In this document: positions 41,685 through 60,110 of the stretch, piece after piece | Layout: each line of letters opens with the position of its first letter | How positions within the stretch are numbered: the stretch's first letter is position 1 | Assembly: GCA_038063735.1 (NCBI GenBank) | Contig: JBBTUN010000009.1 | Location: forward strand, 12,491-76,490 | Reading direction: 5' to 3' | From: Patescibacteria group bacterium | Lineage (GTDB): Bacteria; Patescibacteriota; Microgenomatia; Curtissbacterales; GWA2-41-24 | Length of the DNA stretch: 64,000 bases | Program-made: the position numbers and the translations under genes | The notes under the pieces: generated by a model | Database searches by the model: none | What the model was told of the DNA's origin: nothing | The model's input: the letters and a program-made list of their open reading frames with translations, nothing else

Positions 41685-43970
41685 ATGAGACAAAAAGACA
41701 TAGAGACAAAGACACAAATTAAAAATAGTTTTAAAGAGGAAAAAGAAATATACGCTTTTTGGGAAAAGGAAAAGTTTTTTTCATTCGACTCAAAAACTTC
41801 AAAAAATATTTATTCTCTTTTAATGCCCCCGCCCAACTTAACCGGTGAATTGCATTTGGGTCACGCCCTTCAGCACTGCATCATGGATGCTATTGCTAGA
41901 TATAAACGCCTCTCTGGTTTTGAGGTTTTACTTCTTCCTGGCGTGGACCATGCCGGCATCCAATTTGAAGGAACGCTAGACAAAAAACTTTCCAAAGAGG
42001 GCAAGACGAAGAAAAGTTTGGGCAGAGAAAAATGGTTAGAAGAAGCATGGAAATTTAAAGATGAAGTTTATAAATCTTTTCATGATACCTGGACATTATT
42101 TGGTATTTCTGCAGACTGGTCTCGTGAAGTTTTTACTTTGGATAATGGACCAAAAAAAGCTGTTTTTGAAGAATTTAAAACTTTTTGGGATAAAGGATTA
42201 ATTTATAAAGGGCCATACATTGTGCAGTGGTGTCCTAAGTGCAACACGGCAATTGAAGATGTGGAAATGGAATACCTGGAAAAACGCGAGACACTTTACT
42301 TCTTAAAATATGGCCCTTTGACATTGGCAACGGCAAGGCCCGAAACAAAGTTTGGAGACACTGCTATGGCGGTTAATCCCACGGACAAAAGGTATAAGGA
42401 CTTTATCGGAAAAGAATTTGAAATAGAAACACTAAACGGCAAAAAGATGATGATTGTTGTAGGGGATGATGCCGTTGATCCAAAATTTGGAACAGGAGTT
42501 ATCAAAGTAACCCCAGGGCATGATTTTACCGATTATGAAATTGGCAAGCGTCATAATTTGCCAATTATTCAGGTAATTAGTAAGGAGGGAAGACTCACGG
42601 AATTGGCCGGGAAATATGCCGGTATGAAAGTCTTGGAAGCAAGGGCAGTGATGATTCCCGATTTAAAAGCGAAAGGGATCTTAGTAAAGGAGGAGGAATA
42701 TATTCATAACGTCTCCGTTTGTGAAAGATGCAAAAGCGTCGTTGAGCCGTTAATTTCCGAGGAATGGTTTGTAAAAATGAAAGATATTGCAAAAGGCGGA
42801 ATTGCTGCGATTAACAAAGATCAGATAAAGTTCTTACCAAAAAATTATAAAGGGATTATTTTGGATTGGCTTGAGGAATTGCATGACTGGTGTATTTCCA
42901 GATCTCTTTGGTGGGGACATAGGATTCCTGTTTGGTATAAGAGAAGTGATAAGAGACAAGCGATAAGCAAAGCTTTTCTACGAATAAGTGATAAGCCAGA
43001 AAGGTCTGAAATGAGAGTTTCACTTGAGTCGCCCGGAAAAGGCTGGGTGCAGGATGAGCAGGTTTTGGATACTTGGTTTTCGTCGGGGTTGTGGCCATTA
43101 AGCACTCTGGGCTGGCCGAAGGTTACGGGTCCTGTCAGTGATTTCCCTCCCGTTAGTGCTCGTTCGAGTGAACAATCAAAAGGTAATCTAAAAGAAACTG
43201 TCGAACTGCGCGCTGACAGGAGCCTTTCCACCACTGCCACCCGTTCCCGGGATGGACTTTATGAGTCGGCCTTTCCGTGGGATTTTGAAATTAGCGCACC
43301 GGAAATTAAATACCTGTGGATTGCCAGGATGATTATGCTTTCAGTTTATTTCACCGACGAAATTCCTTTTAAAACGATGTTTTTCCACGGCATGTTAAGG
43401 GACTTGGAAGGGCGTAAATTTTCTAAATCTTTAGGAAATGGTATCGAACCGCAGTACTTGGTTGATAAGTGGGGCGTCGATGCCTCCCGGATGGCTTTAT
43501 ACACTTATTCGATTCCGGGAAGGGACGGCCGTGTTAACAAGGCAGTTCTGGATGAAAGGGGCAAAAACTTCAGGAATTTTGGAACTAAAATTAGAAACAT
43601 TGCACGGTTTGTGCTGGAGCTTAAGCGACAAGAGACAAGCAACAAGAGACAAGAGAAAAATGAATACAGTGATCAATGGATAGTGGAGGAATTGGATAAG
43701 ACTATAAAAAAAGTTACCAAGAATTTGGATAATTTAGAACTTCATTTGGCAGTGGAGGAATTGTACGAGTTTGTGTGGCATAAGTTTGCCGACAAATATA
43801 TTGAATCAGCAAAGGAAAGAAGAGGAGATGCGCAGCCAACTTTGGAAAATGTCCTGAAGCAGGTTTTGATTCTTCTGCATCCTTTCATGCCGTTTTTGAC
43901 TGAGGAAGTTTATCAGATGTTTGATGTAAAAAAGAAATCGATAATGTTGGAAGAATGGCCTTCTGTCTAA
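41685..43970 (+). CDS. valS: valyl-tRNA synthetase (shortened, 761 aa) with an unusual low-complexity insertion
   Basis: PPPNLTGELHLGHAL (HIGH), ATARPETKFGDTAMAVNPTDKRY and GHDFTDYEIGKRHNLP (ValRS signatures), WCISRSLWWGHRIP, DTWFSSGLWPLSTLGWP, and KFSKSLGN (KMSKS). There is a ~40-aa Ser/Arg-rich insert between LGWP and the WIARMIM motif. Confidence 0.85.
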   Translation: MRQKDIETKTQIKNSFKEEKEIYAFWEKEKFFSFDSKTSKNIYSLLMPPPNLTGELHLGHALQHCIMDAIARYKRLSGFEVLLLPGVDHAGIQFEGTLDKKLSKEGKTKKSLGREKWLEEAWKFKDEVYKSFHDTWTLFGISADWSREVFTLDNGPKKAVFEEFKTFWDKGLIYKGPYIVQWCPKCNTAIEDVEMEYLEKRETLYFLKYGPLTLATARPETKFGDTAMAVNPTDKRYKDFIGKEFEIETLNGKKMMIVVGDDAVDPKFGTGVIKVTPGHDFTDYEIGKRHNLPIIQVISKEGRLTELAGKYAGMKVLEARAVMIPDLKAKGILVKEEEYIHNVSVCERCKSVVEPLISEEWFVKMKDIAKGGIAAINKDQIKFLPKNYKGIILDWLEELHDWCISRSLWWGHRIPVWYKRSDKRQAISKAFLRISDKPERSEMRVSLESPGKGWVQDEQVLDTWFSSGLWPLSTLGWPKVTGPVSDFPPVSARSSEQSKGNLKETVELRADRSLSTTATRSRDGLYESAFPWDFEISAPEIKYLWIARMIMLSVYFTDEIPFKTMFFHGMLRDLEGRKFSKSLGNGIEPQYLVDKWGVDASRMALYTYSIPGRDGRVNKAVLDERGKNFRNFGTKIRNIARFVLELKRQETSNKRQEKNEYSDQWIVEELDKTIKKVTKNLDNLELHLAVEELYEFVWHKFADKYIESAKERRGDAQPTLENVLKQVLILLHPFMPFLTEEVYQMFDVKKKSIMLEEWPSV

Positions 43971-44075
43971 TTTTTAATTTTAAGTTTTAAATTTTTATTG
44001 AATTATTAATGTTTAAATTATTTAAAATTTTAATTTGATTGAAAATTATAAATTAAGAATTTAAAATTAAATAGT
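43971..44075. repeat. AT-rich ~70-nt dispersed intergenic repeat, copy 2, between convergent valS and rplY
   Basis: TTTTTAATTTTAAGTTTTAAATTTTTATTGAATTATTAATGTTTAAATTATTTAAAATTTT has the same word order as copy 1. Confidence 0.6.
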
Positions 44076-44154
44076 AATTCCCGCAAAATTCTTGCAGTAA
44101 TTACCGCATCTATTTAAGTATCAAATGTGTCAAAAGTATCTAGAGTATCAAAGG

Positions 44155-44871: not shown

Positions 44872-45079
44872 GCTTTTACTTTAAGGACAAACCTAAAACG
44901 GTTTTTCCTTAATATTCCTTTTCCCTTTGTTGAATAATTTAAACTAGCAAAAGCTAGATTTAAATTAGAATTAAAGGAGTTGACAAGAGATGATACCAAA
45001 TATTCATTTGAAAGGTCAAACTATAGGGGCCCACCCTTGTAATTTTGGCTGGCGTTTATATATAGTGAAGTAAGAGTAG

Positions 45080-45445
45080 ATGCAAGAGCCACTTTCGGTA
45101 AAAACTCAAATAGAAAAAGACGTTTTGGCGCGAATACTTTTGGGGCTTCACAATTTTACAATGACTGTAGAAGCGGCCCGGGAAATTGCAAGAATGACTT
45201 TGGCGACAGTAGATAAAATCGTAAAACACGAGGAGACAGTGGTTGAATTTTATCGTGATTTGGCCAAAAAGCATAAATCTTTTGAGATCTTGTATACTAA
45301 GGTAAAAGGCGAGATTTTAAGAGGCCAGGAGATTACCGCTTACCGCGATGCGTTGAATTTGGTTAACGAGGGTAAGATAGAAGAGGCTAATAAAATCGCC
45401 CAAGGCGCACTAGATATAACTGCCAATGAAACAGCTGACGCTTGA
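45080..45445 (+). CDS. hypothetical alpha-helical protein, first gene of a three-gene operon
   Basis: 121 aa with no recognised family. The stop overlaps the next ORF's start by 20 nt. Confidence 0.3.
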   Translation: MQEPLSVKTQIEKDVLARILLGLHNFTMTVEAAREIARMTLATVDKIVKHEETVVEFYRDLAKKHKSFEILYTKVKGEILRGQEITAYRDALNLVNEGKIEEANKIAQGALDITANETADA

Positions 45446-45866
45446 TACGATTATTGACGGACTAAGTGACGCGCCTATTTCTATTGGGGATAGGTTGACT
45501 ACTTTGGGAGTTGAGGAGAATACTCTTTCTACATTTTCCAAGGAACTTTTGGAAACTGTTGTTTATGGAAGCAGCTTTTTGAAGTTTTTACAGGAAAACA
45601 GAGACAAGCTTGGCATAAATGGGGAAATTCCGGCGGAAGCGTTGCCGGAGGATTTTAAAGACGCTTTTGAAGAGGGTGAGGCGACTTTAGAAAACAGACT
45701 CGTTGCTGCAGGCTTTCCTAAAGAAGACCTTTCTGCTATTTTTGGCGAGGATACCTTACAACTTTCTCTTTCTGCCCAAGAATTCACCGCTTTTATAGAA
45801 AAGAACCCAGACAAATTTTTAGCAGGAATAAAAAACCTGGCAGGAGTGGGGGCTACCGATGCCTGA
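45426..45866 (+). CDS. hypothetical acidic protein, second gene of the operon
   Basis: 146 aa and Glu/Asp-rich. The stop overlaps the next ORF's start by 8 nt. Confidence 0.3.
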   Translation: MKQLTLDTIIDGLSDAPISIGDRLTTLGVEENTLSTFSKELLETVVYGSSFLKFLQENRDKLGINGEIPAEALPEDFKDAFEEGEATLENRLVAAGFPKEDLSAIFGEDTLQLSLSAQEFTAFIEKNPDKFLAGIKNLAGVGATDA

Positions 45867-48423
45867 CGACGAGAAGAAAGATGAATTAACTACCCCCGAA
45901 GCTGGTAGTAACACGCCGCCTAGTGCTGAGCAATTAGATGCCGGGCAAACTGCGGCAAGACAAACTGAAGATGCCGCGAGAAAAGCTTCCGAAGCAGGTG
46001 GGCTAGAACAAGGTCTAAAAAGCGTAGCGTCTGCTGGTGATGCTGGACAGGAAGGAAATGGTGGCAATATAGCGCCTGAGCAACCTGGACCAAGAGTTCC
46101 AATTGAACCTGGCGAAAGTCTTACCACCGAGGAATATTTTGATTCTGTTTCCAAAGCTCCAAACACAGATGCACTACTTGCGAAAATGCCGCCTGGATTA
46201 AGAGCGGGTTACGATCGTTACACAGCAGAACATCCTATTGAGCCAAGAGATGGTCTTAATAGATTAGGCGATGGATCTGTTGATTACGGTGATGGGGTAA
46301 TTGGACCTTCTGCTGAAGATATTGCCCGAGCTAAAGGACCGCCTGTGGAGTCTGGTGCGGGAGCTAAAGAAATTTTAAACCAGGGGGCAGAAGAGCTTAG
46401 ACGCAGAGAAGCTGCAGCCGGTGGCGGTGAACCGCCGGTGGATGTTCCTCCGGTTGCTGCGGCAGATAACGACGGTAATGGTAACGAAACAGATGGTGCA
46501 ACTCCCCCTGTAGAAAAGATGTCAAGATACACGGTTGCTGATTCAAACGAAAGTATTGCACGCGATATGGTGAGGAGGCACGACGCAGGTGAGGATGCAG
46601 ACCCCAATGATGGTTTTTTGGAGTTGCCACTTGAAAAAAAAGCTTATGTGATAAGTGATTTGTATGGACTTTACCTCGAGAGGGGTGTTGATGATAAAGA
46701 TCATAAGGAATTTCTGGATGATATTAGAGAAGGTTTTGAAGATGAAATTGCCGCTCTACCGGATGGGGATGAGAAAACGAGATACGAGCAGGAAATGGCT
46801 GACTGGGATAAGTACTTGAGGGTCGAAGGTACGGCAAGTCCTGATACTGGTGGAGCGTCTGAAAATGTCGACCAGGCAAAAGGCATACGTGATAGTTTAG
46901 ACGCGGGCATGGATCCGGAGGAACTGCGAAGGACCATTGCAGGCAATCCGGAAGCAGCAGCAATTTTAGATAGCGTACTGGCAGAAAGAGGTGCAGCGCC
47001 GCCCGCGCCTGATGCAAGTACTCCGGAAACCCCAGAACCGGCAAGGCCAAGCGCGCCAACTCCCGAACCTGCTGCTCCCTCTCGTGCAGACACACTAAGG
47101 GCACGCGCGGCAGATAGTTTGAGTGAGGAAGAGTTGGCTTATATGAGGTTGGCGGACATGAAACCCAAGGCACTCGCAAGAGAGTTGAGAAGGAAACAAG
47201 CCAGATTAAAAACATTAGAAAGACTCTTAGATAGAACAGCAGATGATACAAAAGCGGCAGAGTATGCAGAAAAAGCTGGGAAGCTGGAGGACGAGATCGA
47301 CTTTATCAAGCAAGTTATGGAGGACGAGGGTGTCGATGCTGATGAGGCAGGCAATGGAGGTACAAGTAATAAAAGTGAGAAGCAGACGGAAGCTGCCAGA
47401 AAACTGGAAGAGAAGATGGATGACTACAGGAGGTTCGGTGAGAGTACTTTTGATGAGTTAAAGAAAACGGAAGACAAGGAGCAAGGTGTTCTAAAGGGTT
47501 TGAGAGAGTCATTTTCTCGTGCAAAGTCAAAAGAGGAGCGAGACTTAATTAATAGTAAAATCGCCGAGGCTGAAGCAAGGCTCGCTGTTATAAAAAGCTT
47601 TAAAGCAGAAAAAGAAGTTGGACACTTAGAGGATAAGAACGACGAGGCGATTAAAGAAACACAACTAAGACGTAGAGAGCTGGGTGAAACTGCTTATCTT
47701 GAAGGGAATATTAAGAATAACAAAACAGCACTGGAAGCGCTAGATAAGGATATTCTGGCAATCGAGGAGAAAATTCTAAAGGAGAGAGAAGGGAGCGAGG
47801 AATGGAAACGGCTCAACCACCAAAAACTAGAACTTAGTAAGCGGGCAAATAAGATGCGAGAGACTTTGCGCTTAGATGAGGACGCTTTGGAAGTTGCCAA
47901 AGAAAAGGCAAAGAAAGATGTAAAACTTAGATCGACATGGGAAAATATAGATCAAAAGAGCCCCGAAGAGTACAGGGCGATGTCCCGTGAAGAACAGATA
48001 AAATACCTTGATGAGGTAGCAAAGGTTTTGCCTGAAGGAAAGAGATATAATTTCGATAATCTTAACGGAAGAGCAATGGCTGGGCAACCTTTGTCCATTG
48101 AAGAGCGTGCGTATCTGCAGAACGAGATTTCACATAGACTACTTGCTGGGACATACGATGCTAAATGCATCACAAAATTAGTCCAATATCCAGAAATTGC
48201 AGATGGTGTGATTGAGAAATTCATGTACCATAAAAGTTTGGAGAAGTGGCGAAGAGAGAATTGTCCGAATGGTTGGGAAAAGGTGATTGATCTTGCTAAG
48301 AAATATCCTGCTTTATTTGCGATACTGGCTGCATTGATGGCAGCTGGAGTCACGGCTTCTGGTGGCGGTATTCCAGCTTTGGGATTTGCAAGTATGGGGG
48401 CTAAAAAAGGAATTTTTGGGTAG
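45859..48423 (+). CDS. large (854 aa) intrinsically disordered / coiled-coil protein with a single C-terminal membrane anchor, function unknown
   Basis: The N-terminal ~420 aa are Ala/Gly/Pro/Glu/Asp-rich and encoded by DNA of visibly higher GC than the surroundings. The middle ~280 aa are Lys/Glu-rich heptad coiled coil. The C-terminus has one hydrophobic helix (LFAILAALMAAGVTASGGGIPALGFA). No signal peptide. Confidence 0.45.
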   Translation: MPDDEKKDELTTPEAGSNTPPSAEQLDAGQTAARQTEDAARKASEAGGLEQGLKSVASAGDAGQEGNGGNIAPEQPGPRVPIEPGESLTTEEYFDSVSKAPNTDALLAKMPPGLRAGYDRYTAEHPIEPRDGLNRLGDGSVDYGDGVIGPSAEDIARAKGPPVESGAGAKEILNQGAEELRRREAAAGGGEPPVDVPPVAAADNDGNGNETDGATPPVEKMSRYTVADSNESIARDMVRRHDAGEDADPNDGFLELPLEKKAYVISDLYGLYLERGVDDKDHKEFLDDIREGFEDEIAALPDGDEKTRYEQEMADWDKYLRVEGTASPDTGGASENVDQAKGIRDSLDAGMDPEELRRTIAGNPEAAAILDSVLAERGAAPPAPDASTPETPEPARPSAPTPEPAAPSRADTLRARAADSLSEEELAYMRLADMKPKALARELRRKQARLKTLERLLDRTADDTKAAEYAEKAGKLEDEIDFIKQVMEDEGVDADEAGNGGTSNKSEKQTEAARKLEEKMDDYRRFGESTFDELKKTEDKEQGVLKGLRESFSRAKSKEERDLINSKIAEAEARLAVIKSFKAEKEVGHLEDKNDEAIKETQLRRRELGETAYLEGNIKNNKTALEALDKDILAIEEKILKEREGSEEWKRLNHQKLELSKRANKMRETLRLDEDALEVAKEKAKKDVKLRSTWENIDQKSPEEYRAMSREEQIKYLDEVAKVLPEGKRYNFDNLNGRAMAGQPLSIEERAYLQNEISHRLLAGTYDAKCITKLVQYPEIADGVIEKFMYHKSLEKWRRENCPNGWEKVIDLAKKYPALFAILAALMAAGVTASGGGIPALGFASMGAKKGIFG

Positions 48424-48513
48424 GTCGGTGGGTCGGTAGAGTCAGTAAAATCAGTAATGTAGGTAAAATCGGTATAGTCGGTAATTTCAGTGTTTTCAGT
48501 AAAGTCGGTAAGC
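48422..48513. repeat. direct array of about 11 GTCGGTA/TCAGTA 8-9 bp units, same family as the 26.5 kb array
   Basis: GTCGGTGGGTCGGTAGAGTCAGTAAAATCAGTAATGTAGGTAAAATCGGTATAGTCGGTAATTTCAGTGTTTTCAGTAAAGTCGGTAAGC. Located between convergent genes. Confidence 0.65.
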
Positions 48514-48521
48514 AAAAATAA

Positions 48522-51482
48522 CTATTTCTTGGAAACTTTTATTAAAAATTGGCGGTCGGTATTTAAATTTGTTTGAGCGGTTACGTTTTGTTTGCCGCCA
48601 ACGCCAGCGCTGCAATCAGAAGATCCTGAATCTAGTTCAGTATGACAAGGAGAAGCAGAGTCGATTTTTAGGTAGGCTGGCAGGTTAAAGGTGAATTTAA
48701 ATGGGTCTTTTTCTGTACCGGGTTGTTTTTGCACATAAAGAGAATATGCCGGGGCTTGCTCGAGCTTTATGTTTTTTGGAATTCTGTAGACAAAAGTTAT
48801 GGTTCTTTCTTCTTTAACAGGCACTTCCACAAGAGTCGCAAAAGCGGTTAAGTTTCCTTGAGTCGTCACTTCTACTTTGGCCTCATCGCTGGTGGCTTGA
48901 TTTTTTAACTTATCTTTAGATGCGACATTTTGCCCGTCGTCATAACTTTCCAGGCCACTTCCAAGTGGCGTAAAAACTCTTAAATAATTAACGTATGTTC
49001 CACCCGGCCAAGTATCTGCCGGGCTATTATTTTTGTAGGTTATTGCCAGTTTGGCCACGAGTCCCGCATCTCGGTCTACAGTCATTTCGTAATTAACATC
49101 TCTATTTAGATATCTATTTACTTTATTGGCGCCCACATTTGCTTCGGACAGGGCTAAATAGTCGCTTGTGGCATTTTTGTTGTCCTGGGGATTGTAGGTA
49201 AACGGTGGTGTTAAATTGCTCCAATTTTTAACTTTTACATACGTAGAAAGGCTGGGGTTATCAAAAGAGATTAGCATGTGTTTTTGGGCGAGTGCTTCAC
49301 CGGTTGTGGTAAGTAGCGCAAGCCAGGGTAAGTGGTCGTTCCCCTGGGTGGGAGTTGAGAAACTTGCAACGACTTTACCAATCAGTTTATTTGTAAGGGA
49401 GGTAAAGAAATCGCGCTTTTGAGTGGAACCGGGGAAAAAGCCGACTTCGGCATAATATTCCCCTTTATCAAAAAGGTTACCAGCCGTTATTTCTTCGTTG
49501 TAATCGTCAAGTTTTATGGGGCCAATTTTTTCCAGCAGTTTTTGCATGTAGTCAAGGTCTATGGCAATTACTCCATCAACTGTTTTGCCTGTTTCCTTTT
49601 TATAAAAATCGCGGGCGGTTTTGGCGTTGATTTCGAAATCCGTACTCCAATTGGAATCCCGCAGGTATAGTTGCTTGACACCCAACTTTTCCACAAGAGG
49701 CGCGGGCGGATTGATCTTTTCTTTGAGTTGGCCGTCTATTGTATAAATATCCTCGACATTAATTGACTTTAGTTTGCCACTTTCCAAAACTATTTCTCCG
49801 AAATTACCGATGAAACCTCCTCCCGGCCTTAGCTCTGAGTTATTCTGGAGCAAGATTAGGTAAGTTTTTTTTGAATCGATACCAATAAGATCTGCAGTTA
49901 GGTTTGTTAACTCAAGCGTATTAAGGCTTAGTTCGTTTAAAGATTTTATGTTTGTTTCCAGGCTGTTTAACTTAGATTTAAAGATGCCGTTTTTTTGGGC
50001 ACTTTGGACTAGTGCCAGGGCCCTGGCGCTTTCGAAATAGGCCTTGCTTATTAAGGCCTGTGGGTCCTCTATATTGAAAGTGCTTTTGGCCGGTTTGTCC
50101 GAGGCGATGTACTCAAGATCGACAGCAAGCGTCTTTGCTCCGCTAATGAAATTGGCAAAGGCAGACGCAGTTAGCTGGGCACTTTCGAGTGAGTTACTGA
50201 CGCTTTGAATTTTTTTGGGAATGACAAGAGAGACGGGATAAGTTAATTTATTGAATTCCCAATTTGCACTGCCAAAAGAATTTTTGGCACTCGTTGCTTT
50301 TTTAAGCGCTGTATCAAAATCCCCGGACTGAAGTTTTATTTGCGCGCTCTTTAGAGAATTTACACCAGAGTAAAGATCCAGGCTAATTTTGCCCGTGAAC
50401 ACAACGATAACCAGTACAAAAACAAATAAAACTGCGAGTTTTGATTTGAAGCTAAATCCAAAGCTTGGTAATTTGGGTAACTTTTTGGGTAGTGATTTTT
50501 TAAGTTGAGGCGAAACTTCATGCTTTTCTACTGTTTTTGGTAAAACTACTTCGGGACGCGCGAGAAGAGGGTCCAGGAAACTAAGCTTTTTTACCATATC
50601 TTTGTCTTTAAAAAATGTCAGTGTGTTTTCTAAGCCTTCCTTCAAATTAAACCTGGGCGAGAAACCAAGATCATGGATTCTGACAACAGGTTCGGGTTTT
50701 GGTTTTTCGATTTGCGGCTCACCGGCAAAAAAGAGGCTTAGTTCTTTTTGAAGTAGAATGTGGGCGCTGTTTTTTATTTCGTAGGCACAAGACAGCGCCG
50801 TCAGGGGGCTAGTGGAGATTATAAACCGGATGTTTTTGCCAGAATCGTTGGCCATGAATTTGTTGAATGCATGAAGCGCATCGTCGATATATGTTGGATA
50901 AATCATGGTCAAGCCTTCACTCTCCAAAATTATTTTGTCGGTTTGGGTTGCCTGGGTAATGAGGTAAATAAGCTCGTTATTTTCAAAGTAACTATCTTTG
51001 GTGTTTTTTTCGTACTTATTGTGAAGCTTTATGCCGGGGCCATAAATATCTCCCATTAAAAAAAGTTTGATGTTTTTTTTCGCTTCTTCGTCGCGCGCCG
51101 CAAAATCCAGGAAATCTGAACTTGTGGTAATTTTGGCAACAAAAATGACCTTTGAGGTACCACTTCTTGCTTTTGAAATTAGGTTCGAGGTGACGGCGGA
51201 GACTTTTGAAGCGGAAAAATCTCCTCCGGCATTTAAATCTTCACTTGTTAAGTGGATGATTAGATCAAATGTGGGTAAATGGTTTGGGAAAGGCTGTGCC
51301 AGATCTATGTCTACAAAGGTAAATCTATGATCCTGGAGAACATCTTCTTGCGGTTGAGTTTTGCCCGCGCCATAAATTTGGTAACCTCTTTTGAGCAAGT
51401 TTTTTGCAAGCGCGGAACCAAAACAACTGCCTACATCGGTTATTAATATTTGCGATTTTGTTGTTTGGGCAGGGGCATCCAT
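48522..51482 (-). CDS. fusion protein: N-terminal NAD-dependent epimerase/dehydratase (SDR) domain, TM helix, C-terminal DUF4012-like extracytoplasmic domain
   Basis: The N-terminus ILITDVGSCFGSALAKNLLKRGYQIYGAG is a Rossmann motif. A TM helix lies at ~aa 345-365 (LAVLFVFVLVIVVFTG). The ~600-aa C-terminal domain has the size and composition typical of DUF4012 proteins found in polysaccharide loci. Confidence 0.45.
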   Translation of the reverse strand: MDAPAQTTKSQILITDVGSCFGSALAKNLLKRGYQIYGAGKTQPQEDVLQDHRFTFVDIDLAQPFPNHLPTFDLIIHLTSEDLNAGGDFSASKVSAVTSNLISKARSGTSKVIFVAKITTSSDFLDFAARDEEAKKNIKLFLMGDIYGPGIKLHNKYEKNTKDSYFENNELIYLITQATQTDKIILESEGLTMIYPTYIDDALHAFNKFMANDSGKNIRFIISTSPLTALSCAYEIKNSAHILLQKELSLFFAGEPQIEKPKPEPVVRIHDLGFSPRFNLKEGLENTLTFFKDKDMVKKLSFLDPLLARPEVVLPKTVEKHEVSPQLKKSLPKKLPKLPSFGFSFKSKLAVLFVFVLVIVVFTGKISLDLYSGVNSLKSAQIKLQSGDFDTALKKATSAKNSFGSANWEFNKLTYPVSLVIPKKIQSVSNSLESAQLTASAFANFISGAKTLAVDLEYIASDKPAKSTFNIEDPQALISKAYFESARALALVQSAQKNGIFKSKLNSLETNIKSLNELSLNTLELTNLTADLIGIDSKKTYLILLQNNSELRPGGGFIGNFGEIVLESGKLKSINVEDIYTIDGQLKEKINPPAPLVEKLGVKQLYLRDSNWSTDFEINAKTARDFYKKETGKTVDGVIAIDLDYMQKLLEKIGPIKLDDYNEEITAGNLFDKGEYYAEVGFFPGSTQKRDFFTSLTNKLIGKVVASFSTPTQGNDHLPWLALLTTTGEALAQKHMLISFDNPSLSTYVKVKNWSNLTPPFTYNPQDNKNATSDYLALSEANVGANKVNRYLNRDVNYEMTVDRDAGLVAKLAITYKNNSPADTWPGGTYVNYLRVFTPLGSGLESYDDGQNVASKDKLKNQATSDEAKVEVTTQGNLTAFATLVEVPVKEERTITFVYRIPKNIKLEQAPAYSLYVQKQPGTEKDPFKFTFNLPAYLKIDSASPCHTELDSGSSDCSAGVGGKQNVTAQTNLNTDRQFLIKVSKK

Positions 51483-54990: not shown

Positions 54991-55476
54991 TTACCCGGTG
55001 CGGGGCTTGATCACAAGATACCTTGAGTCTCCTTCTCCTACCGATTCTGTTGTCACTTTAGGATGATTTGTAAACAGCGCATGGATAACACGCCTTTCTG
55101 AGGGTTTCAGGTTATATAGAACTTCTTGTTCGTGGGTTTCCTCGACTTTCTCAGCAGCATTCAGGGCCATTTTTTCTAGTTTTTGTTCTTTGGCCCTGCG
55201 CCAGTTATCAATGTCCAAGAATACTTCGAAGTCATCTTCTCCTGTTTGAGACTTTAACCTTACCGCCATAACAAACTGCAGACTTTCCAGGTTGCTTCCG
55301 TATTTGCCAATGAGAAGTGATGAGTCTTCCGATTTGATATCAACAAAATAATTGTTATCTATTTTAGAAATTTCGGCTGTTGCCGAAACGCCCAGTCTTT
55401 CTATTAGATCTTTAACACATTGAGCGACAAGGTTTTCGTCAAGCTTTATTTTTTTTGTTTTCGCGGGTCCTGTCAC
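54991..55476 (-). CDS. Jag/KhpB-like RNA-binding protein (KH + R3H domains)
   Basis: KH-like LLIGKYGSNLESLQFV and R3H LKPSERRVIHALFTNHPKVTTESVGEGDSRYLVI. Located in the conserved position downstream of yidC. Confidence 0.7.
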   Translation of the reverse strand: MTGPAKTKKIKLDENLVAQCVKDLIERLGVSATAEISKIDNNYFVDIKSEDSSLLIGKYGSNLESLQFVMAVRLKSQTGEDDFEVFLDIDNWRRAKEQKLEKMALNAAEKVEETHEQEVLYNLKPSERRVIHALFTNHPKVTTESVGEGDSRYLVIKPRTG

Positions 55477-55624
55477 AACATTCCTTCCCGCCAGTGCTCG
55501 CTCGACAAAATAATTGATCGATAGTTAACGAAACTGGCTAGAGCTGCGCGCTGTCGGGATCCTTTCCAGTTGTGCCACCCGCTCAGTGTTGGACCATTTG
55601 ATATCTGAAATTGGTAATTGATAA

Positions 55625-56458
55625 TTACTTCCTCCATTTTTCCGGCAAATATTTATTAAGGGAGCCTGCTCCCATGATTTTATACTGCTGAACTATACCA
55701 ATTATTGTAAACGTATTCCAGTAAAGCGAAAGCCCAACAGGGAAGCCATACGAAAAAAAGGCGATCATTGCCGGCATAATCAAGGCCATTTGGGTTTGCA
55801 TTTGAGCCATCGAATCCTCAAGGCTGTCGCCTTTACCGTCTTTGCCCTTTTTTTTGACGAGAGCCGTAGCCGGTTTTTCGGGATTCACCAGCATCTTTGA
55901 TTGAATGAATTGAAAGACTCCGGTAAGAATTGGGATTATCAATATAAAAATCCCAATAGTTGCCCACTCGTTTGGTTTACTGGACAAACTTAGGCCAAAA
56001 AAAGATGTGTCTGGGATATTTGCCAGTTTTAGTGAAGGGATATATACACGGTCGTTAATATTTGTCAGAAGTTCGCTACTATTTAGATCCACAAACTTTA
56101 AAAGCACCTGGTAAAGAGCAATGAAAACCGGAATCTGAAGAACCAAGGGCAAGCAGCCTGCTGCCGGATTAACACCGTGTTCCTTGTAAAGCTTACTGAC
56201 TTCCTGCTGGTGACGAACTTTGTCACTGCCATGGGTTGCTTTAATTCTGTCCAAGTGCGGCTTTAATTCGGCCATTTTCTTACTGCTTTTAAGCTGGGCG
56301 GTTGTTAGGGGCCAAAGGATTAGTCTAATGACGACTGTTAGGATAATTATTGAAAAACCAAGAGCACCCGGAACCTTAACCTGCGAAAAAGCAGCGTAGA
56401 TTACAATCAGCACGTTTAGGATGGGGTTGATAAGTAGAGCGTCGAAAATATTCATCAT
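55625..56458 (-). CDS. yidC: membrane protein insertase YidC/Oxa1 (short Gram-positive-type)
   Basis: 277 aa with five TM helices, and [19 protein letters not shown] typical of YidC. Located downstream of yidD/rnpA. Confidence 0.85.
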
Positions 56459-56664
56459 GTTAGTGGATCAATAATTTGCCTTTTGGTGAGCGGGTGGCAC
56501 GCCAGTAGCCTTTTGATTGACAAGGCCAAGCCTTTTCCAAAACCATACTTTTCGAACGCTTGTTGCGAGTAAGCGGAACATGTTGGCAGGAAACGGCAAG
56601 TGACAAGCGTTGACGGGAAAATAATATGATATAGGCGGTAAGCAATTTTAATAATTCTTATCAT
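56455..56664 (-). CDS. yidD: membrane protein insertion efficiency factor YidD
   Basis: [37 protein letters not shown] matches the YidD signature. 69 aa. Confidence 0.8.
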
Positions 56665-56980
56665 TGTGTATTTTTTTTAAGGACTCTTCGATTTCTACAC
56701 CCACCTCCTTTTGGGTCGAGTGGGCAAAATTAATTTTGGCAATAAAAAGCAGTTCTGCCTTAATATCCTTTTTATTCTTAAGGCTTGCGGCCACCAAGCG
56801 CTTCATTCTATTTCTATCTACCGCAAGTTTTGCAATTTTTTTAGATACTACCGTTGCTGCTTTAAACTGTGGCGCTTTTTTATAAATGATATCAAAGCGC
56901 AAGCCCAAAATCCTCTGGCCTTTAAATCTTCCTGAATTTTTATTTTTGGATAAATTTAAACGGCTAATTTTCGCCAACAT
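56648..56980 (-). CDS. rnpA: ribonuclease P protein component
   Basis: 110 aa, basic. [23 protein letters not shown] ... RNRMKRLV is the RnpA pattern. The start overlaps the rpmH stop (TAATG). Confidence 0.8.
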
Positions 56981-57117
56981 TAAACTGTTAACTTCGCGCG
57001 TTTTTTGGTTCTTCTTCTTTTGACAACATTTTGTCCGTCGGTTGTTCTCATGCGCACGCGAAAACCGTGTGTTTTGGCCCTTTTTCTTTTTTTAGGTTGA
57101 TAAGTTCGTTTTGGCAT
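56980..57117 (-). CDS. rpmH: 50S ribosomal protein L34
   Basis: Absent from the ORF track because it is under 60 aa. The minus-strand translation [45 protein letters not shown] is a textbook L34. Confidence 0.85.
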
Positions 57118-57198
57118 GAGGTAAAGATTATACTAAGGGCAAAAAATTTGCAAGTTGTTGCCTAAATAGATAGTTTTTACACATTTAATTTTGATATG

Positions 57199-57227
57199 TT
57201 GACAGTGTGGAAAAGATTTGTAATTAT
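57199..57227 (+). promoter_or_regulatory. candidate dnaA promoter TTGACA-N16-TAATTAT overlapping a DnaA box
   Basis: TTGACAGTGTGGAAAAGATTTGTAATTAT. The spacer contains TGTGGAAAA, which is TTTTCCACA on the opposite strand, suggesting autoregulation. Confidence 0.4.
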
Positions 57228-57350
57228 GGATACCGGACTTAAGTTTTAGTCCACTTTTAGTAGATTTAAAATCTTCAGTAAAAATTGCCTGCACAAAATT
57301 TTACCGGAGCATGAGCTTGCTCTAACTGCCATAAACTCTTTGAGATTAAT

Positions 57351-58706
57351 ATGTATAAGATCGGCCAAAAGGTGTGGGGAGAAGTCCTTAGCGACCTTAA
57401 AATATCTGTTTCTGCTTCGAATTTTAAGACCTGGTTTTTGGGGTCCTATGTTATGGATTTTAAAAAAGAGGAGAATTCTAACGTTTTAACGATTGGAGTA
57501 AAAAGCAGCTTTTTGAAAGAACAAATTGAAAGGCGATACCAGGACACAATTAACCAAATACTAGTTAGAAAAAAGGCCAACACCAATGTTAATTTTGTTG
57601 TTGGACAGCCTAATAGAGTGGAAGAGCAGACTAATACACCGTTATTCACAGGCGTTGCTCAACAATTCTTCCAACCGCTTAGGCGACCCGATTCCCTCAA
57701 TGCGGGCTACACCTTTAAAAACTATGTGGTTGGGGTTTCCAATAATCTTGCTTATATAGCTGCAACCCAGGTAGTTGGCGACCCGGGCAAAATTTATAAT
57801 CCCTTTCTTGTTTATGGACCAACCGGGGTTGGTAAAACTCATCTTTTGCAAGCTATTGGTAATGATTTTTTGGCAAAGTATACGGACGCAAAAGTTCTTT
57901 ATGTAACAGCAGAAAAGTTTACGAACGATTACTTAGAATCGCTTTCTAACAAAACGCAGATTGCCTTCCGCAGCAAGTATAGAAACGTCCACTTGTTAAT
58001 TATTGATGACATGCAATTTTTGGCAGGTAAAGAAAGTACACAAGATGAATTCTTCCACACTTTTAACGACCTGGACCTGGCCGGCCGGCAAATAATTGCG
58101 GCTTGCGACAGACACCCAAAAGACTTGGGGAAATTAAAAGAGAGACTTGTAAGCAGATTCCTGGGCGGTATGTGTGTTGATATTGGGCCGGCTGACTTAG
58201 ATATGAAAATCGCTATCGTTAAGTCAAAATGCGACGAGCGTGGAGTAAGTGTTGCCAATGATGTTATTGAGCATATAGCCAGTCAATGCAGTGGGGGAGC
58301 CCGTGAACTTGAGGGGATGCTGACGACAACACTCGCCCACATTAGACTTTCGGGTGGAAACACAAACACCAATGATATTAAAAATGCAATTCTCAGGAAT
58401 AAAAAGTTTATACCTAAAAAATTAACAATAGGTATGGTGAGCGACGCGGTATGTAGACATTTTAAGGTTTCCCTCGAGGATTTGAGAGGCTCTTCCAGAA
58501 AGGCCCGAACTGTTTATATTAGGCAGCTACTTATGTATATGCTGAGAAAAGAGCTTGAGTTGCCTCTTGTTGCAATTGGCGATGTTTTGGGGGGCCGCGA
58601 CCACTCAACTGTTATACATAGTGTTTATAAGATGGAAACAGAGATAAGCCTCAAGCAAAGTTTGCGTGATGAGGTGCACCGCATTAAGTCCCTTTTGGAA
58701 GCTTAA
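57351..58706 (+). CDS. dnaA: chromosomal replication initiator protein DnaA
   Basis: N-terminus MYKIGQKVWGEVLSDLK...NFKTWF, AAA+ Walker A GPTGVGKTHLLQAIGN, and C-terminal DNA-binding domain (VYIRQLLMYMLRKEL...RDHSTVIHS). Confidence 0.95.
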   Translation: MYKIGQKVWGEVLSDLKISVSASNFKTWFLGSYVMDFKKEENSNVLTIGVKSSFLKEQIERRYQDTINQILVRKKANTNVNFVVGQPNRVEEQTNTPLFTGVAQQFFQPLRRPDSLNAGYTFKNYVVGVSNNLAYIAATQVVGDPGKIYNPFLVYGPTGVGKTHLLQAIGNDFLAKYTDAKVLYVTAEKFTNDYLESLSNKTQIAFRSKYRNVHLLIIDDMQFLAGKESTQDEFFHTFNDLDLAGRQIIAACDRHPKDLGKLKERLVSRFLGGMCVDIGPADLDMKIAIVKSKCDERGVSVANDVIEHIASQCSGGARELEGMLTTTLAHIRLSGGNTNTNDIKNAILRNKKFIPKKLTIGMVSDAVCRHFKVSLEDLRGSSRKARTVYIRQLLMYMLRKELELPLVAIGDVLGGRDHSTVIHSVYKMETEISLKQSLRDEVHRIKSLLEA

Positions 58707-58967
58707 GTTCTCCCCATGTTTTAAACACATAATTTTTGGCTTGGCCTACTAAATAACGGTGGTTTTGAACATAGTTTTCCACAACACACCAGCCTTAACT
58801 ATTTCTTTTTTATTAACTTTTCCACATTACTATATAAACTACTACTGTTTTGATTAAGCTAGAAAATTAGATATATTAAAGTGTTATAATCACGAGGGGA
58901 TTACGTTACAACTTAATCTTTTTGACTTCTGCCCACAGGTTTTTTCTCGGAACCCCAAATTTGGTAA
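58707..58967. other. probable chromosomal origin of replication (oriC) in the dnaA-dnaN intergenic region
   Basis: Two perfect TTTTCCACA DnaA boxes in the same orientation (58775-58783 and 58818-58826) are followed by a ~60 nt AT-rich stretch (TATATAAACTACTACTGTTTTGATTAAGCTAGAAAATTAGATATATTAAAG) suitable as a DNA unwinding element. Confidence 0.5.
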
Positions 58968-60110
58968 ATGAAATTTTCAATAAATCAACAAGTATTTTTA
59001 AAGTCTTTAAGTGTTGTCAATAGATCTCTTTTGTCCAAAAGCAACTTACCAATACTTGCCAATGTTTTAATAAGTGCCAAAGGCGGCAAGATAGAGTTTG
59101 TAACAACAAGCCTGGAGACTGCAACCAGGGTAGAAATAGCAGGGAAGGTGACAGAGGAAGGAAGAACAACCCTGCCTAGCAGGGCGGTGAACGAATTTGT
59201 TTCACAACTTAATGAAGTAGAACTATCTTTTGAAAAGCTTGGGGAAGAAGTTCTTATTTCTGCACCGGGGTTTAAGGCAAGGTTTGCGACAATGGCAGCT
59301 GAAGAGTTCCCGGCAATTCCAAAAGTTGACAGCGGGAAACAGGTGGAAGTTGTGGGCCAGGACTTTGTTGAGGGGATAAACAAGGTAGTATTTTGTGCCG
59401 CAGTTGATGAGAGCCGGCCGATTTTAACCGGCGTGCTTGTTGAGACAAATAAGAAGGGTTTTTCTATGGTTGCAACCGATGGGTTCCGCTTGGGTTTTTG
59501 CCAGGTTAAGGTGGAGGGGCAGCAGGAGCCGGGCGGCCTCAAATTTATAATACCCGCAAAGGCGCTTAGTGAAATAGCCAAGATAATATCAGAATCAAAT
59601 GAAGAAAAAGGGGTAGGGGTAAAGGTTAAAATGATGGTGTCTGATAACTTGAGCCAGGTAGTTTTTAAGATAAATAATGTAGAGTTTACATCCCGACTTA
59701 TTGAAGGAGTTTTTCCAAACTGGGAGAAGCTGATCCCAAGCACATTTAGTTCAAAGGCAAAACTTAATAGGGGTGAATTCTTAAGACTTATTAAAATTGC
59801 CTCAATTTTTTCCCGGGACTCCGGCAATATAGTCAAATTGAGCCTTGAGAATGGTGGGAAGACCTCGAAGCTCTCGGTTAATTCTACAACAGCGCAGGTT
59901 GGGTCAAGTGAATCGGAAATACCAATTGCTATGGATGGGAAAGGCGGGGAGATTGCTTTTAATTATCGTTATCTAATAGAGGCACTAACTACCATCGGAG
60001 AAGAGGATGTGAATTTTGAAATGAATGAGAGTTTAAATCCGGGTAAAATAACAGGAACTACTGATGACAATTTTTTCCATATAATCATGCCTGTTCGATT
60101 GCAGAATTGA
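58968..60110 (+). CDS. dnaN: DNA polymerase III beta sliding clamp
   Basis: MKFSINQQVFLKSLSVVNRSL... in a three-domain, 380-aa protein immediately downstream of dnaA. Confidence 0.9.
   Translation: MKFSINQQVFLKSLSVVNRSLLSKSNLPILANVLISAKGGKIEFVTTSLETATRVEIAGKVTEEGRTTLPSRAVNEFVSQLNEVELSFEKLGEEVLISAPGFKARFATMAAEEFPAIPKVDSGKQVEVVGQDFVEGINKVVFCAAVDESRPILTGVLVETNKKGFSMVATDGFRLGFCQVKVEGQQEPGGLKFIIPAKALSEIAKIISESNEEKGVGVKVKMMVSDNLSQVVFKINNVEFTSRLIEGVFPNWEKLIPSTFSSKAKLNRGEFLRLIKIASIFSRDSGNIVKLSLENGGKTSKLSVNSTTAQVGSSESEIPIAMDGKGGEIAFNYRYLIEALTTIGEEDVNFEMNESLNPGKITGTTDDNFFHIIMPVRLQN

What the first reader, a model, noticed from the sequence alone, without database searches (positions are those of the whole stretch)
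45080..48423. Compositionally atypical three-gene operon encoding a giant disordered coiled-coil, tail-anchored protein
Three overlapping ORFs (121, 146 and 854 aa) have no recognisable family. The first ~1.4 kb of the large ORF (about 45.86-47.25 kb) is visibly GC-richer than the surrounding ~40% GC genome, with codons such as GCC/GCG/CCG/GGC abundant. It encodes an Ala/Gly/Pro/Glu/Asp-rich segment with PEP/PAP motifs. Next comes ~280 aa of Lys/Glu-rich coiled coil and a single C-terminal hydrophobic helix, with no signal peptide, so the protein is tail-anchored with its bulk cytoplasmic or on the surface of another cell. The composition suggests horizontal acquisition or strong selection for disorder. 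In an episymbiotic CPR lifestyle such a protein could be a scaffold or attachment organelle component. The locus ends in an array of GTCGGTA repeats (separate finding).
Basis: partly seen in the sequence, partly recalled or inferred. Interest (0 to 1): 0.6.

Follow-up and report, generated by a model that had tools for sequence, protein, structure and literature searches.

The report
Curtissbacteria-specific tail-anchored disordered protein operon
A three-gene operon found only in one small group of ultra-small (CPR) bacteria encodes two small helical proteins and a long, mostly acidic and floppy protein anchored to the membrane by its tail; its high GC content comes from its amino-acid make-up, not foreign origin, and its function is unknown.

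Summary
The three overlapping + strand ORFs (121, 146 and 854 aa) are real. None matches Pfam, NCBIfam, PHROGs, PADLOC or PDB, and two AlphaFold models have no significant fold match.

The first 1.4 kb of the large ORF is the GC-richest stretch of the window (0.50 against 0.41, about +3.3 SD). The excess lies in codon positions 1 and 2. GC3 (0.34-0.37) is at or below the window mean, and GCC/GGC are rare. So the cause is Ala/Gly/Pro/Glu/Asp content, not foreign codon usage.

The operon sits in the same gene order in about 40 Candidatus Curtissbacteria loci, roughly 9 kb from dnaA. Horizontal acquisition is therefore not supported.

All credible large-protein homologues lack an N-terminal hydrophobic segment. 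They share a fast-evolving N-region of very variable length that is acidic in all but the most distant member, a Glu/Lys-rich helical stretch (absent in that member), a conserved ~115-aa helical domain and a C-terminal hydrophobic anchor. The coiled-coil signal is weak and segmented, and residues 222-322 look folded.

An exhaustive profile search found only about a dozen ORF2 clusters among 1.84 billion proteins.

My best reading is a membrane-tethered cytoplasmic scaffold working with the two small proteins. That part is inferred, not shown.

The parts
45037..45066 (+). Promoter-like site (TTGTAA-18-TATAGT) 14 nt upstream of ORF1, in the 208-bp divergent gap shared with the L25 gene
   Evidence: It matches 9 of 12 positions. 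The number of such sites in the region is not above the shuffle expectation, so this is only a candidate.
45080..45445 (+). ORF1, 121 aa: small orphan protein, probably helical (inferred from sequence, not modelled), conserved across the family
   Evidence: 38-53% identity in 9 relatives. No consistent Pfam hit and no PDB hit. dN/dS 0.08 against L018.
45426..45445 (+). Dual-coding overlap: the end of ORF1 (…TANETADA) and the start of ORF2 (MKQLTL…)
   Evidence: The overlap is 20 or 23 nt in essentially all ~40 loci. The context ACTGCCAATGAAACAGCT is nearly invariant, and ORF2 usually has no Shine-Dalgarno of its own.
45426..45866 (+). ORF2, 146 aa: acidic protein made of two copies of a ~55-aa module (bridge, helix, short helices, bridge, long helix)
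45859..46521 (+). ORF3 residues 1-221: acidic Ala/Gly/Pro/Glu/Asp-rich, predicted disordered, fast-evolving
   Evidence: Pro+Gly 15-30%, on the disordered side of the charge-hydropathy boundary. 66% identity to L018 where ORF2 is 88% identical. dN/dS 0.355.
46522..46824 (+). ORF3 residues 222-322: clade-specific, probably folded helical sub-domain embedded in the N-region
   Evidence: Low Pro+Gly (7-15%) and low disorder-propensity score. Conserved in L018 and L020, absent from L017 and more distant members. dN/dS 0.23.
46825..47118 (+). ORF3 residues 323-420: second low-complexity stretch including the PAP/PEP-rich linker; this is the GC maximum of the window
   Evidence: The 46800-47199 window has GC 0.55.
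47119..47958 (+). ORF3 residues 421-700: Glu/Lys-rich helical region with segmented, modest heptad periodicity
   Evidence: heptad test. (residues 659-697 modelled as one long helix). 50% identity to L020. Absent from the most distant member L048.
47959..48303 (+). ORF3 residues 701-815: conserved membrane-proximal all-helical domain, the family signature
   Evidence: Alignments A3 and A7. AF2 pLDDT 75-92, pTM 0.66. No PDB sequence or fold relative. No consistent Pfam hit in 21 members.
48304..48423 (+). ORF3 residues 816-854 plus stop: C-terminal membrane anchor. A ~21-residue hydrophobic helix is followed by Gly-Gly-Gly-Ile-Pro, a short Gly/Ala-rich stretch and a basic end (KKGIFG)
   Evidence: The anchor is present in 22 of 24 non-identical homologues.
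48424..48520 (.). About 10 degenerate copies of a 9-nt unit (RTCRGTAAN) filling the gap between the convergent stop codons of ORF3 and the DUF4012 gene. Not part of the operon's conserved core
   Evidence: The gap is only 1-65 bp in relatives. The RNA fold is weaker than shuffled sequence (z +1.74).

Best explanation
This is a vertically inherited three-gene operon restricted to Candidatus Curtissbacteria. Its products most likely form a membrane-tethered complex on the cytoplasmic face of the cell membrane.

SHOWN
- The three genes are always together, in the same order and tightly coupled. ORF1 and ORF2 share a conserved 20/23-nt dual-coding overlap, and ORF2 and ORF3 overlap or abut.
- ORF3 lacks any N-terminal hydrophobic segment and ends in a conserved hydrophobic anchor, preceded by a conserved ~115-aa helical domain.
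- Upstream of that domain, the helical Glu/Lys-rich stretch and the N-region vary enormously in length (about 40 to 640 aa). The N-region is acidic in all but the most distant member and evolves 3-4 times faster than the small ORFs.
- The GC excess is a by-product of Ala/Gly/Pro/Glu/Asp codons.

INFERRED
- ORF3 is inserted post-translationally by its tail, for example by the YidC encoded 7 kb away, with its bulk in the cytoplasm.
- The conserved membrane-proximal domain is the docking site for ORF1 and/or ORF2.
- The helical segments oligomerise.
- The acidic disordered N-region projects from the membrane as a flexible, negatively charged spacer or recruitment arm. Its length and sequence are free to drift, but its composition is not.
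- The cellular process it serves (pole or contact-site organisation, division, envelope assembly) is not determined.
For: ORFs and overlaps.

Orphan status. Fold searches.

Composition. GC1/GC2/GC3 of the N part are 0.65/0.50/0.34. The third-position C versus G bias follows the strand across the whole window.

Conserved synteny and taxonomic restriction:
- Loci.
- only 7 of 185,579 species genomes carry it, all Curtissbacteria-type.
- 31 metagenome loci.
- 18 hits in 1.84 billion representatives, 12 of them full length or nearly so.
-.

Anchor and missing signal peptide across the family.

Conserved C-domain.

Rate gradient: against L020: ORF2 59%, C-domain 52%, helical region 50%, N-region 32-37%; dN/dS 0.08, 0.11, 0.23, 0.36.

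Link of the ORF2 module to the membrane: in P0038, P0039 and P0045 a single ORF2-like module sits at the N-terminus, with no signal peptide, followed by a linker and a TM helix. So the module also occurs directly tethered to the inner face of a membrane.

yidC in the window. Bacterial tail-anchor criteria: PMC3087755.
Against: - No direct evidence shows that ORF1 or ORF2 binds ORF3.
- Topology rests on hydropathy and on the absence of a signal peptide only. The anchor has basic residues on both sides.
- In about a third of members the anchor is followed by a ~20-aa Gly/Ala-rich uncharged stretch. It could therefore be a hairpin rather than a single span.
- The coiled-coil signal is weak.
- The C-domain model used only two sequences.
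- Synteny is uninformative about function, because the whole 14-kb region is collinear in all relatives.
- Profile-profile searches against Pfam/PDB (HHpred) and the AlphaFold database could not be run. A very remote known relative is therefore not excluded.
Confidence: 0.5

Rival explanations
1. Surface fibril. The bulk of ORF3 is outside the cell, like a Gram-positive M-protein-type fibril. It would have a variable N-terminal tip, a helical stalk, and a C-terminal sorting or anchoring signal (short motif, hydrophobic helix, basic tail). It would be used for contact with a host cell.
For: - The N-region is hypervariable in length and sequence.
- The C-terminus is tripartite: a conserved 'K-K-N-P-G-W'-like motif, a hydrophobic stretch and a basic end.
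- The operon is adjacent to envelope-polysaccharide genes.
- CPR bacteria are thought to live attached to hosts (general knowledge).
Against: - No N-terminal hydrophobic segment exists in any of the 22 credible members, and no upstream extension of the ORF is possible.
- NCBIfam, which to my knowledge includes models for C-terminal sorting signals, gives no hit at E<=1.
- dN/dS of the N-region is 0.36, so selection is not diversifying.
- The co-translated partners ORF1 and ORF2 also lack signal peptides.
- The ORF2 module is found on the N-terminal (cytoplasmic) side of a TM helix in P0038 and P0045.
- The juxtamembrane segment before the anchor is itself net positive.
Confidence: 0.1
2. Accessory of the neighbouring envelope-polysaccharide machinery. 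The tethered complex would regulate or scaffold the DUF4012, Wzz-like, Polysacc_synt (flippase-type) and Wzy_C proteins encoded immediately downstream on the other strand.
For: ORF3 is convergent with and directly abuts the DUF4012 gene in every locus examined, with gaps of 1-98 bp. All these partners are membrane proteins.
Against: - The genes are on opposite strands, so they are not co-transcribed.
- The entire region from VanW to Polysacc_synt is collinear in all relatives. Adjacency therefore carries no specific signal.
- DUF4012/Wzz/Wzy clusters are, to my knowledge, widespread, whereas ORF1-3 were found only in Curtissbacteria-type loci here.
Confidence: 0.12
3. One reading: a horizontally acquired, compositionally foreign island.
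For: The segment is the GC-richest 1.4 kb of the window.
Against: - GC3 is 0.34-0.37 against a window mean of 0.385. The third-position C/G bias is typical of + strand genes.
- The GC excess is confined to codon positions 1 and 2.
- The same gene order is kept in relatives down to 33% ORF2 identity.
- There are no mobile-element, phage or defence signatures.
- The locus sits in a housekeeping region 9 kb from dnaA.
Confidence: 0.02

Closest known systems
Bacterial tail-anchored membrane proteins (a class defined by topology; e.g. Streptomyces TAMPs, E. coli TssL/SciP, DjlC, Flk)
   Same: No N-terminal signal sequence, a hydrophilic N-terminus, and one hydrophobic segment within ~30 residues of the C-terminus (criteria from PMC3087755). 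A YidC insertase is encoded nearby.
   Different: ORF3 is much larger than typical bacterial examples. About 60% of it is low-complexity acidic sequence. The tail often carries an extra Gly/Ala-rich stretch after a conserved Pro. No sequence relationship to any described member.
Mycoplasma pneumoniae attachment-organelle core proteins with acidic proline-rich (APR) regions, especially P65 (also HMW1)
   Same: The order of parts matches. P65 has an N-terminal intrinsically disordered acidic/Pro-rich region (1-217), then three short coiled-coil segments (218-320), then a helical C-terminal region (321-405) (PMC11940719). Both occur in small, genome-reduced, host-associated bacteria.
   Different: No detectable homology. 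There are no DPN(Q)AY repeats. As far as I know P65 has no membrane anchor. ORF3 comes with two dedicated small partners. Nothing is known about where ORF3 localises.
Membrane-anchored or polar scaffold proteins with long disordered linkers (ZipA, HubP/FimV, PopZ, TolA) - comparison from general knowledge
   Same: They combine a membrane or oligomerisation module with a long Pro/Glu/Ala-rich or charged flexible region that acts as a tether or recruitment hub.
   Different: ZipA, HubP and TolA are anchored by an N-terminal helix, and PopZ is soluble. Here the anchor is C-terminal and the conserved globular domain is next to the membrane, not at the far end. No Pfam, NCBIfam or fold similarity.

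Membership tests
Bacterial tail-anchored membrane proteins (topological class) | No N-terminal signal sequence, with a correctly placed start codon | tested here: met
   Maximum 19-residue hydropathy in the first 30 windows is -0.62 in the window protein and at most 1.24 in all homologues. The ORF begins at the first start codon after an in-frame stop. No dedicated predictor (SignalP) was available.
Bacterial tail-anchored membrane proteins (topological class) | One (rarely two) transmembrane segment at the extreme C-terminus | tested here: met
   One segment with KD19 above 1.6, at residues 816-838 of 854, and none elsewhere (maximum 0.60). The same holds in 22 of 24 homologues. A single span versus a hairpin is not resolved.
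Bacterial tail-anchored membrane proteins (topological class) | The tail is sufficient for membrane targeting, and the N-terminal bulk is cytoplasmic | not testable with these tools
   Needs fractionation, protease protection or reporter fusions.
Mycoplasma terminal-organelle APR proteins (P65/HMW1) | Acidic, proline-rich disordered region followed by coiled coil | tested here: inconclusive
   The acidic Pro/Ala-rich region is present. The coiled-coil signal is only modest.
Mycoplasma terminal-organelle APR proteins (P65/HMW1) | Sequence homology or signature repeats (EAGR box, DPN(Q)AY) | tested here: not met
   No Pfam hit at E<=1 other than noise. 'DPN' occurs once and is not repeated. No tandem repeats in the ORF.
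C-terminal sorting-signal surface proteins (LPXTG, PEP-CTERM and relatives) | N-terminal signal peptide, plus a signature motif, TM helix and basic cluster at the C-terminus | tested here: not met
   The hydrophobic helix and basic end are present. There is no signal peptide in any member, and no NCBIfam model matched. The PEP strings lie in the N-region, about 400 residues from the anchor.
EF-hand pair proteins (for ORF2) | Significant fold match and conserved Ca-binding loop ligands | tested here: not met

The most novel reading that the evidence does not exclude
ORF1-3 build a lineage-specific internal scaffold, analogous to but not homologous with the Mycoplasma attachment-organelle core. 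It would be anchored in the membrane by ORF3's tail and would organise a specialised membrane zone of a Curtissbacteria cell, such as the host-contact site or a pole. The expandable acidic disordered arm would act as a spacer or client-recruiting brush.
Probability: 0.12. Interest if true: 0.7.

Novelty: new variant of a known kind. Interest (0 to 1): 0.3.

Why it matters
Little is known about CPR cell biology because few CPR bacteria have been cultured. This operon has been kept intact and tightly coupled throughout one CPR lineage, next to the replication origin. It encodes a membrane-tethered protein dominated by disorder, which makes it a concrete, clonable candidate for a lineage-specific structural or organising system.

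The methodological point is that a local GC peak in an AT-rich genome can be produced entirely by an Ala/Gly/Pro-rich low-complexity protein. GC by codon position should be checked before such a peak is read as horizontal transfer.

As it stands, this is one of very many orphan gene families in CPR genomes, with no functional evidence.

Tried and rejected
- Full-length ORF3 and the 9-sequence C-terminal alignment in the word-indexed protein search were both saturated by low-complexity words. They returned only the protein itself and one fragment.
- The afdb50 fold library was unavailable.
- Horizontal transfer was rejected on GC3, strand bias and synteny.
- Phage or defence origin was rejected.
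- An ORF2-like module hidden in the ORF3 C-domain, or an ORF1 relation to it, was rejected. hhalign probability was below 1%.
- The giant hits P0042 and P0043 to the ORF2 profile are spurious. P0043 is clearly eukaryotic (ankyrin repeats, ZU5, death domain) and P0042 is a repeat protein without Pfam hits. Both match only through a short VxGQxFLKxL-like motif.
- Weak Pfam hits (DUF5101 for ORF1, capSnatchArena for ORF2, GHMP_kinases_C for ORF3) do not recur among family members and are noise.
- The EF-hand resemblance of ORF2 is at noise level.
- The downstream 9-nt repeats are not a hairpin terminator.
- Synteny in the most divergent member (L048) is the same as elsewhere, so it could not separate functional linkage from general collinearity.
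Full report
**1. The observation**

They overlap by 20 and 8 nt.

The GC claim holds numerically.
- The window averages 0.411 GC.
- The highest 400-bp window in the whole 64 kb is at 46.8 kb (0.5525, about +3.6 SD).
- The highest 1400-bp window starts at 45.8 kb (0.501, about +3.3 SD).
- The segment 45859-47250 is 0.496, and the rest of the ORF is 0.429.

The codon-level description does not hold.
- In the GC-rich part, GC by codon position is 0.653 / 0.500 / 0.336.
- The mean of 50 window genes is 0.488 / 0.363 / 0.385, with SD 0.053 / 0.038 / 0.041.
- GCC supplies 6 of 66 Ala codons and GGC 7 of 43 Gly codons.
- My first comparison suggested unusual avoidance of C-ending codons. One search showed this is a strand effect. 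Across the window, + strand genes have C3 of about 0.15 and G3 of about 0.22, and - strand genes have the reverse. ORF3 is an ordinary + strand gene.
- The GC peak is therefore a consequence of Ala/Gly/Pro/Glu/Asp/Arg codons.
- A second gene in the window (an M23 peptidase, 61477-63936) is about as GC-rich for the same reason, with GC2 of 0.49.

**2. Not foreign: a conserved, lineage-restricted operon**

ORF3 is identical to a 'hypothetical protein' of a Patescibacteria MAG.

ORF2 has about 25 relatives at 42-88% identity. The named ones are from Candidatus Curtissbacteria, which belongs to the Microgenomates group of the Patescibacteria/CPR.

In five divergent contigs the gene order is the same: VanW, DUF192, TsaD, class-I aaRS, (TPR), L25 on the - strand, ORF1, ORF2, ORF3, then DUF4012, a Wzz-like gene, RNase H and Polysacc_synt, all on the - strand. 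The window has the same neighbours. It also carries yidC, jag, dnaA and dnaN 7-11 kb downstream. This is core chromosome next to the origin.

The family is small.
- A scan of one genome per species (185,579 species) found only 7 loci. All are Curtissbacteria, or MAGs deposited as 'uncultured Gammaproteobacteria' that carry the same locus.
- A metagenome scan added 31 loci.
- An exhaustive HMMER search with the 20-sequence ORF2 profile over 1.84 billion representatives gave 18 hits. Twelve are full-length or nearly full-length ORF2 proteins. The others are fragments, two membrane-anchored single-module proteins, and two spurious matches to large repeat proteins.

Even the most distant member (L048, ORF2 33% identical) has the same neighbours.

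**3. Coupling**

The ORF1-ORF2 overlap is 20 or 23 nt in essentially every locus. ORF2 and ORF3 overlap or abut, between -4 and +20 nt, in nearly all.

The overlap encodes ORF1's conserved C-terminal TANET and ORF2's conserved N-terminal MKQL at the same time. As a result the context ACTGCCAATGAAACAGCT is nearly invariant. ORF2 usually has no Shine-Dalgarno sequence of its own, whereas ORF3 usually has a GGAGG-like one. This is what translational coupling of subunits made in fixed proportion looks like. That reading is an inference.

**4. Anatomy of the large protein**

I analysed 24 non-identical complete homologues of 370-971 aa.
- None has an N-terminal hydrophobic segment.
- 22 have a single strongly hydrophobic segment (19-residue Kyte-Doolittle mean 1.76-2.61) ending 6-29 residues from the C-terminus. 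The two exceptions end mid-domain or out of frame and look like assembly truncations.
- The anchor is an uncharged stretch of 14-49 residues. It starts with a ~20-residue helix. In 16 of 22 a Pro follows at position 17-26, then a variable Gly/Ala-rich extension. Net-positive segments lie on both sides.
- AF2 draws two short helices separated by the GGGIP break in the window protein. A single span and a hairpin both remain possible.

Before the anchor lies a conserved ~115-aa domain, with motifs such as MS..E(F/Y), YPE(I/V)..AV and P..WEK…FAK(K/N)NPGW. It is modelled as a compact all-helical domain, with pLDDT 75-92 and pTM 0.66 from only two sequences.

Before that lies a Glu/Lys-rich helical region. 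My heptad test finds five segments above the 95th percentile of shuffles and none above the 99th, with register shifts. I therefore call it a segmented helical region with modest coiled-coil propensity. L048 lacks it.

The N-region, defined as everything before the last 330 residues, is 40-641 aa long.
- It is rich in Ala/Glu/Pro/Gly/Gln, with net charge -4 to -61 in members of 544 aa or more. In the shortest, most distant member (L048) the 40-residue N-region is net +4.
- It cannot be aligned between distant members.
- In the window protein most of it falls on the disordered side of the charge-hydropathy boundary, with 15-30% Pro+Gly.
- Residues 222-322 are an exception. They have low Pro+Gly and are conserved in L018 and L020, at about 40% identity to L020. 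They are absent from L017 and from all distant members. This is a clade-specific, probably folded insert.

**5. Evolutionary rates**

Identity to L020 by region:

| Region | Identity |
|---|---|
| ORF2 | 59% |
| ORF3 C-domain | 52% |
| ORF3 helical region | 50% |
| ORF3 N-region | 32-37%, with many gaps |

dN/dS against the closest relative L018, where dS is 0.5-0.8 and not saturated:

| Region | dN/dS |
|---|---|
| ORF1 | 0.08 |
| ORF2 | 0.11 |
| ORF3 sub-domain (222-322) | 0.23 |
| ORF3 disordered N-region (1-221) | 0.36 |

The N-region is under relaxed purifying selection on composition. There is no sign of diversifying selection.

**6. The small proteins**

ORF1 is 38-53% identical across the family and has no relatives in Pfam or PDB.

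ORF2 is an internal duplication of a ~55-aa module. It is modelled at pLDDT 77 as two copies of bridge, helix, short helices, bridge, long helix.
- EF-hand pair proteins crowd the top of both lists, but at noise level, and the Ca-binding loop ligands are not conserved. This is a lead only.
- Profile-profile comparison shows no relation among ORF1, ORF2 and the ORF3 C-domain.

The informative distant hits are P0038 and P0044 (295-296 aa) and P0039 and P0045 (118 and 225 aa). Each has one ORF2-like module at the N-terminus with no signal peptide, then a Pro-rich linker, a TM helix, and an unassigned outer domain. So the module also exists directly tethered to the cytoplasmic face of a membrane. 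This fits ORF2 acting at the membrane together with ORF3.

**7. Mechanism**

I commit to a membrane-tethered cytoplasmic complex. Section 4 establishes the architecture, and the rest is inference.
- ORF3 is inserted by its tail.
- Its conserved membrane-proximal domain is the functional core and the probable docking site for ORF1 and ORF2.
- The helical segments oligomerise.
- The acidic disordered arm is an expandable spacer or recruitment element.

I put about 0.5 on this as a whole. The architectural half is much more secure than the interaction half.

Rivals:
- An extracellular fibril with a C-terminal sorting-type signal (about 0.1). The main objection is the universal lack of a signal peptide, together with the cytoplasmic partners.
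- An accessory of the adjacent polysaccharide machinery (about 0.12). Adjacency is uninformative because the whole region is collinear.
- Horizontal acquisition (about 0.02).

**8. Comparison with known systems**

By topology it meets the sequence criteria for bacterial tail-anchored proteins (PMC3087755).

By domain order it closely parallels Mycoplasma pneumoniae P65, which has a disordered acidic/Pro-rich region, then segmented coiled coil, then a helical C-terminal region (PMC11940719). There is no homology, no signature repeats and, as far as I know, no anchor in P65.

It is not a member of the SMC, EzrA, ZipA or DivIVA families or of the sorting-signal families by any test available here.

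**9. Verdict**

This is a real, conserved, orphan operon. The striking GC signal is explained by amino-acid composition, and the horizontal-transfer idea fails.

The kind of thing is familiar: a tail-anchored, disorder-rich helical scaffold with small partners. The families are new and restricted to Curtissbacteria.

Interest is modest (0.3). Orphan, disorder-rich proteins are common in CPR genomes and no function is established. The tight conservation near the origin and the parallel with P65 still make it a reasonable target for CPR cell biology.

Noticed in passing
window 48424-48520: About 10 degenerate copies of a 9-nt unit (consensus GTCGGTAAA) fill exactly the gap between the convergent stop codons of ORF3 and the DUF4012 gene. 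Relatives have only 1-65 bp there, so the array is lineage-specific. As RNA it folds less well than shuffled sequence (z +1.74), so it is not a hairpin terminator.
   Followed up: partly
window 45426-45445 and the equivalent position in ~40 loci: A conserved 20/23-nt dual-coding overlap. The same bases encode ORF1's conserved ...TANET end and ORF2's conserved MKQL start, which gives a nearly invariant ACTGCCAATGAAACAGCT.
   Followed up: yes
window 54991-60110: jag (KH/R3H), yidC, dnaA and dnaN are present, so the replication origin probably lies near 56.5-57.3 kb. Third-position C versus G content of genes flips with coding strand across the whole window (+ genes C3 about 0.15 and G3 about 0.22; - genes the reverse).
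   Followed up: partly
window 61477-63936 (-): An 819-aa M23 peptidase with an N-terminal coiled-coil-like region, several hydrophobic segments and Ala/Gly/Thr-rich stretches. It is the second GC-rich region of the window (0.48; GC2 0.49), again because of amino-acid composition.
   Followed up: partly
window 43000-43400 (inside the class-I aaRS gene 41685-43970): A local GC rise to 0.48 coincides with a Ser/Arg/Thr-rich stretch (…VSARSSEQSKGNLKETVELRADRSLSTTATRSRDG…). It looks like an insertion between the two tRNA-synt_1 matches.
   Followed up: no
window 43971-44154, compared with L004-L008: Relatives carry a 146-172-aa gene between the aaRS and L25 genes, with weak or faint TPR hits in some. 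The window has only a 184-bp gap there.
   Followed up: no
L011, L013, L014 (contigs CAYMGH010000115.1, CAYGDE010000007.1, CAYMIE010000031.1): MAGs deposited as 'uncultured Gammaproteobacteria' carry this Curtissbacteria-type operon. The taxonomic labels are probably wrong.
   Followed up: no
L007/L040 7435-7596; L026; L031: In one lineage ORF3 is preceded by a separate 49-aa ORF and a 157-nt gap, which could be a frameshift or a split gene. Two other loci have ORF3 truncated before the anchor. These are likely assembly errors or pseudogenes.
   Followed up: no
P0038, P0044, P0039, P0045 (metagenomic proteins, no window coordinates): An orphan family of bitopic proteins. Each has one ORF2-like module, a Pro-rich linker, a TM helix, a ~100-aa unassigned outer domain and, in P0045, a Pro/Thr-rich tail. 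Their source organisms are unknown.
   Followed up: partly
window 48522-51482 (-): The 986-aa DUF4012 protein has a weak N-terminal epimerase-like (Rossmann) match (E 0.078) and a central hydrophobic segment. It heads a conserved cluster of Wzz-like, RNase H, Polysacc_synt and Wzy_C genes.
   Followed up: no
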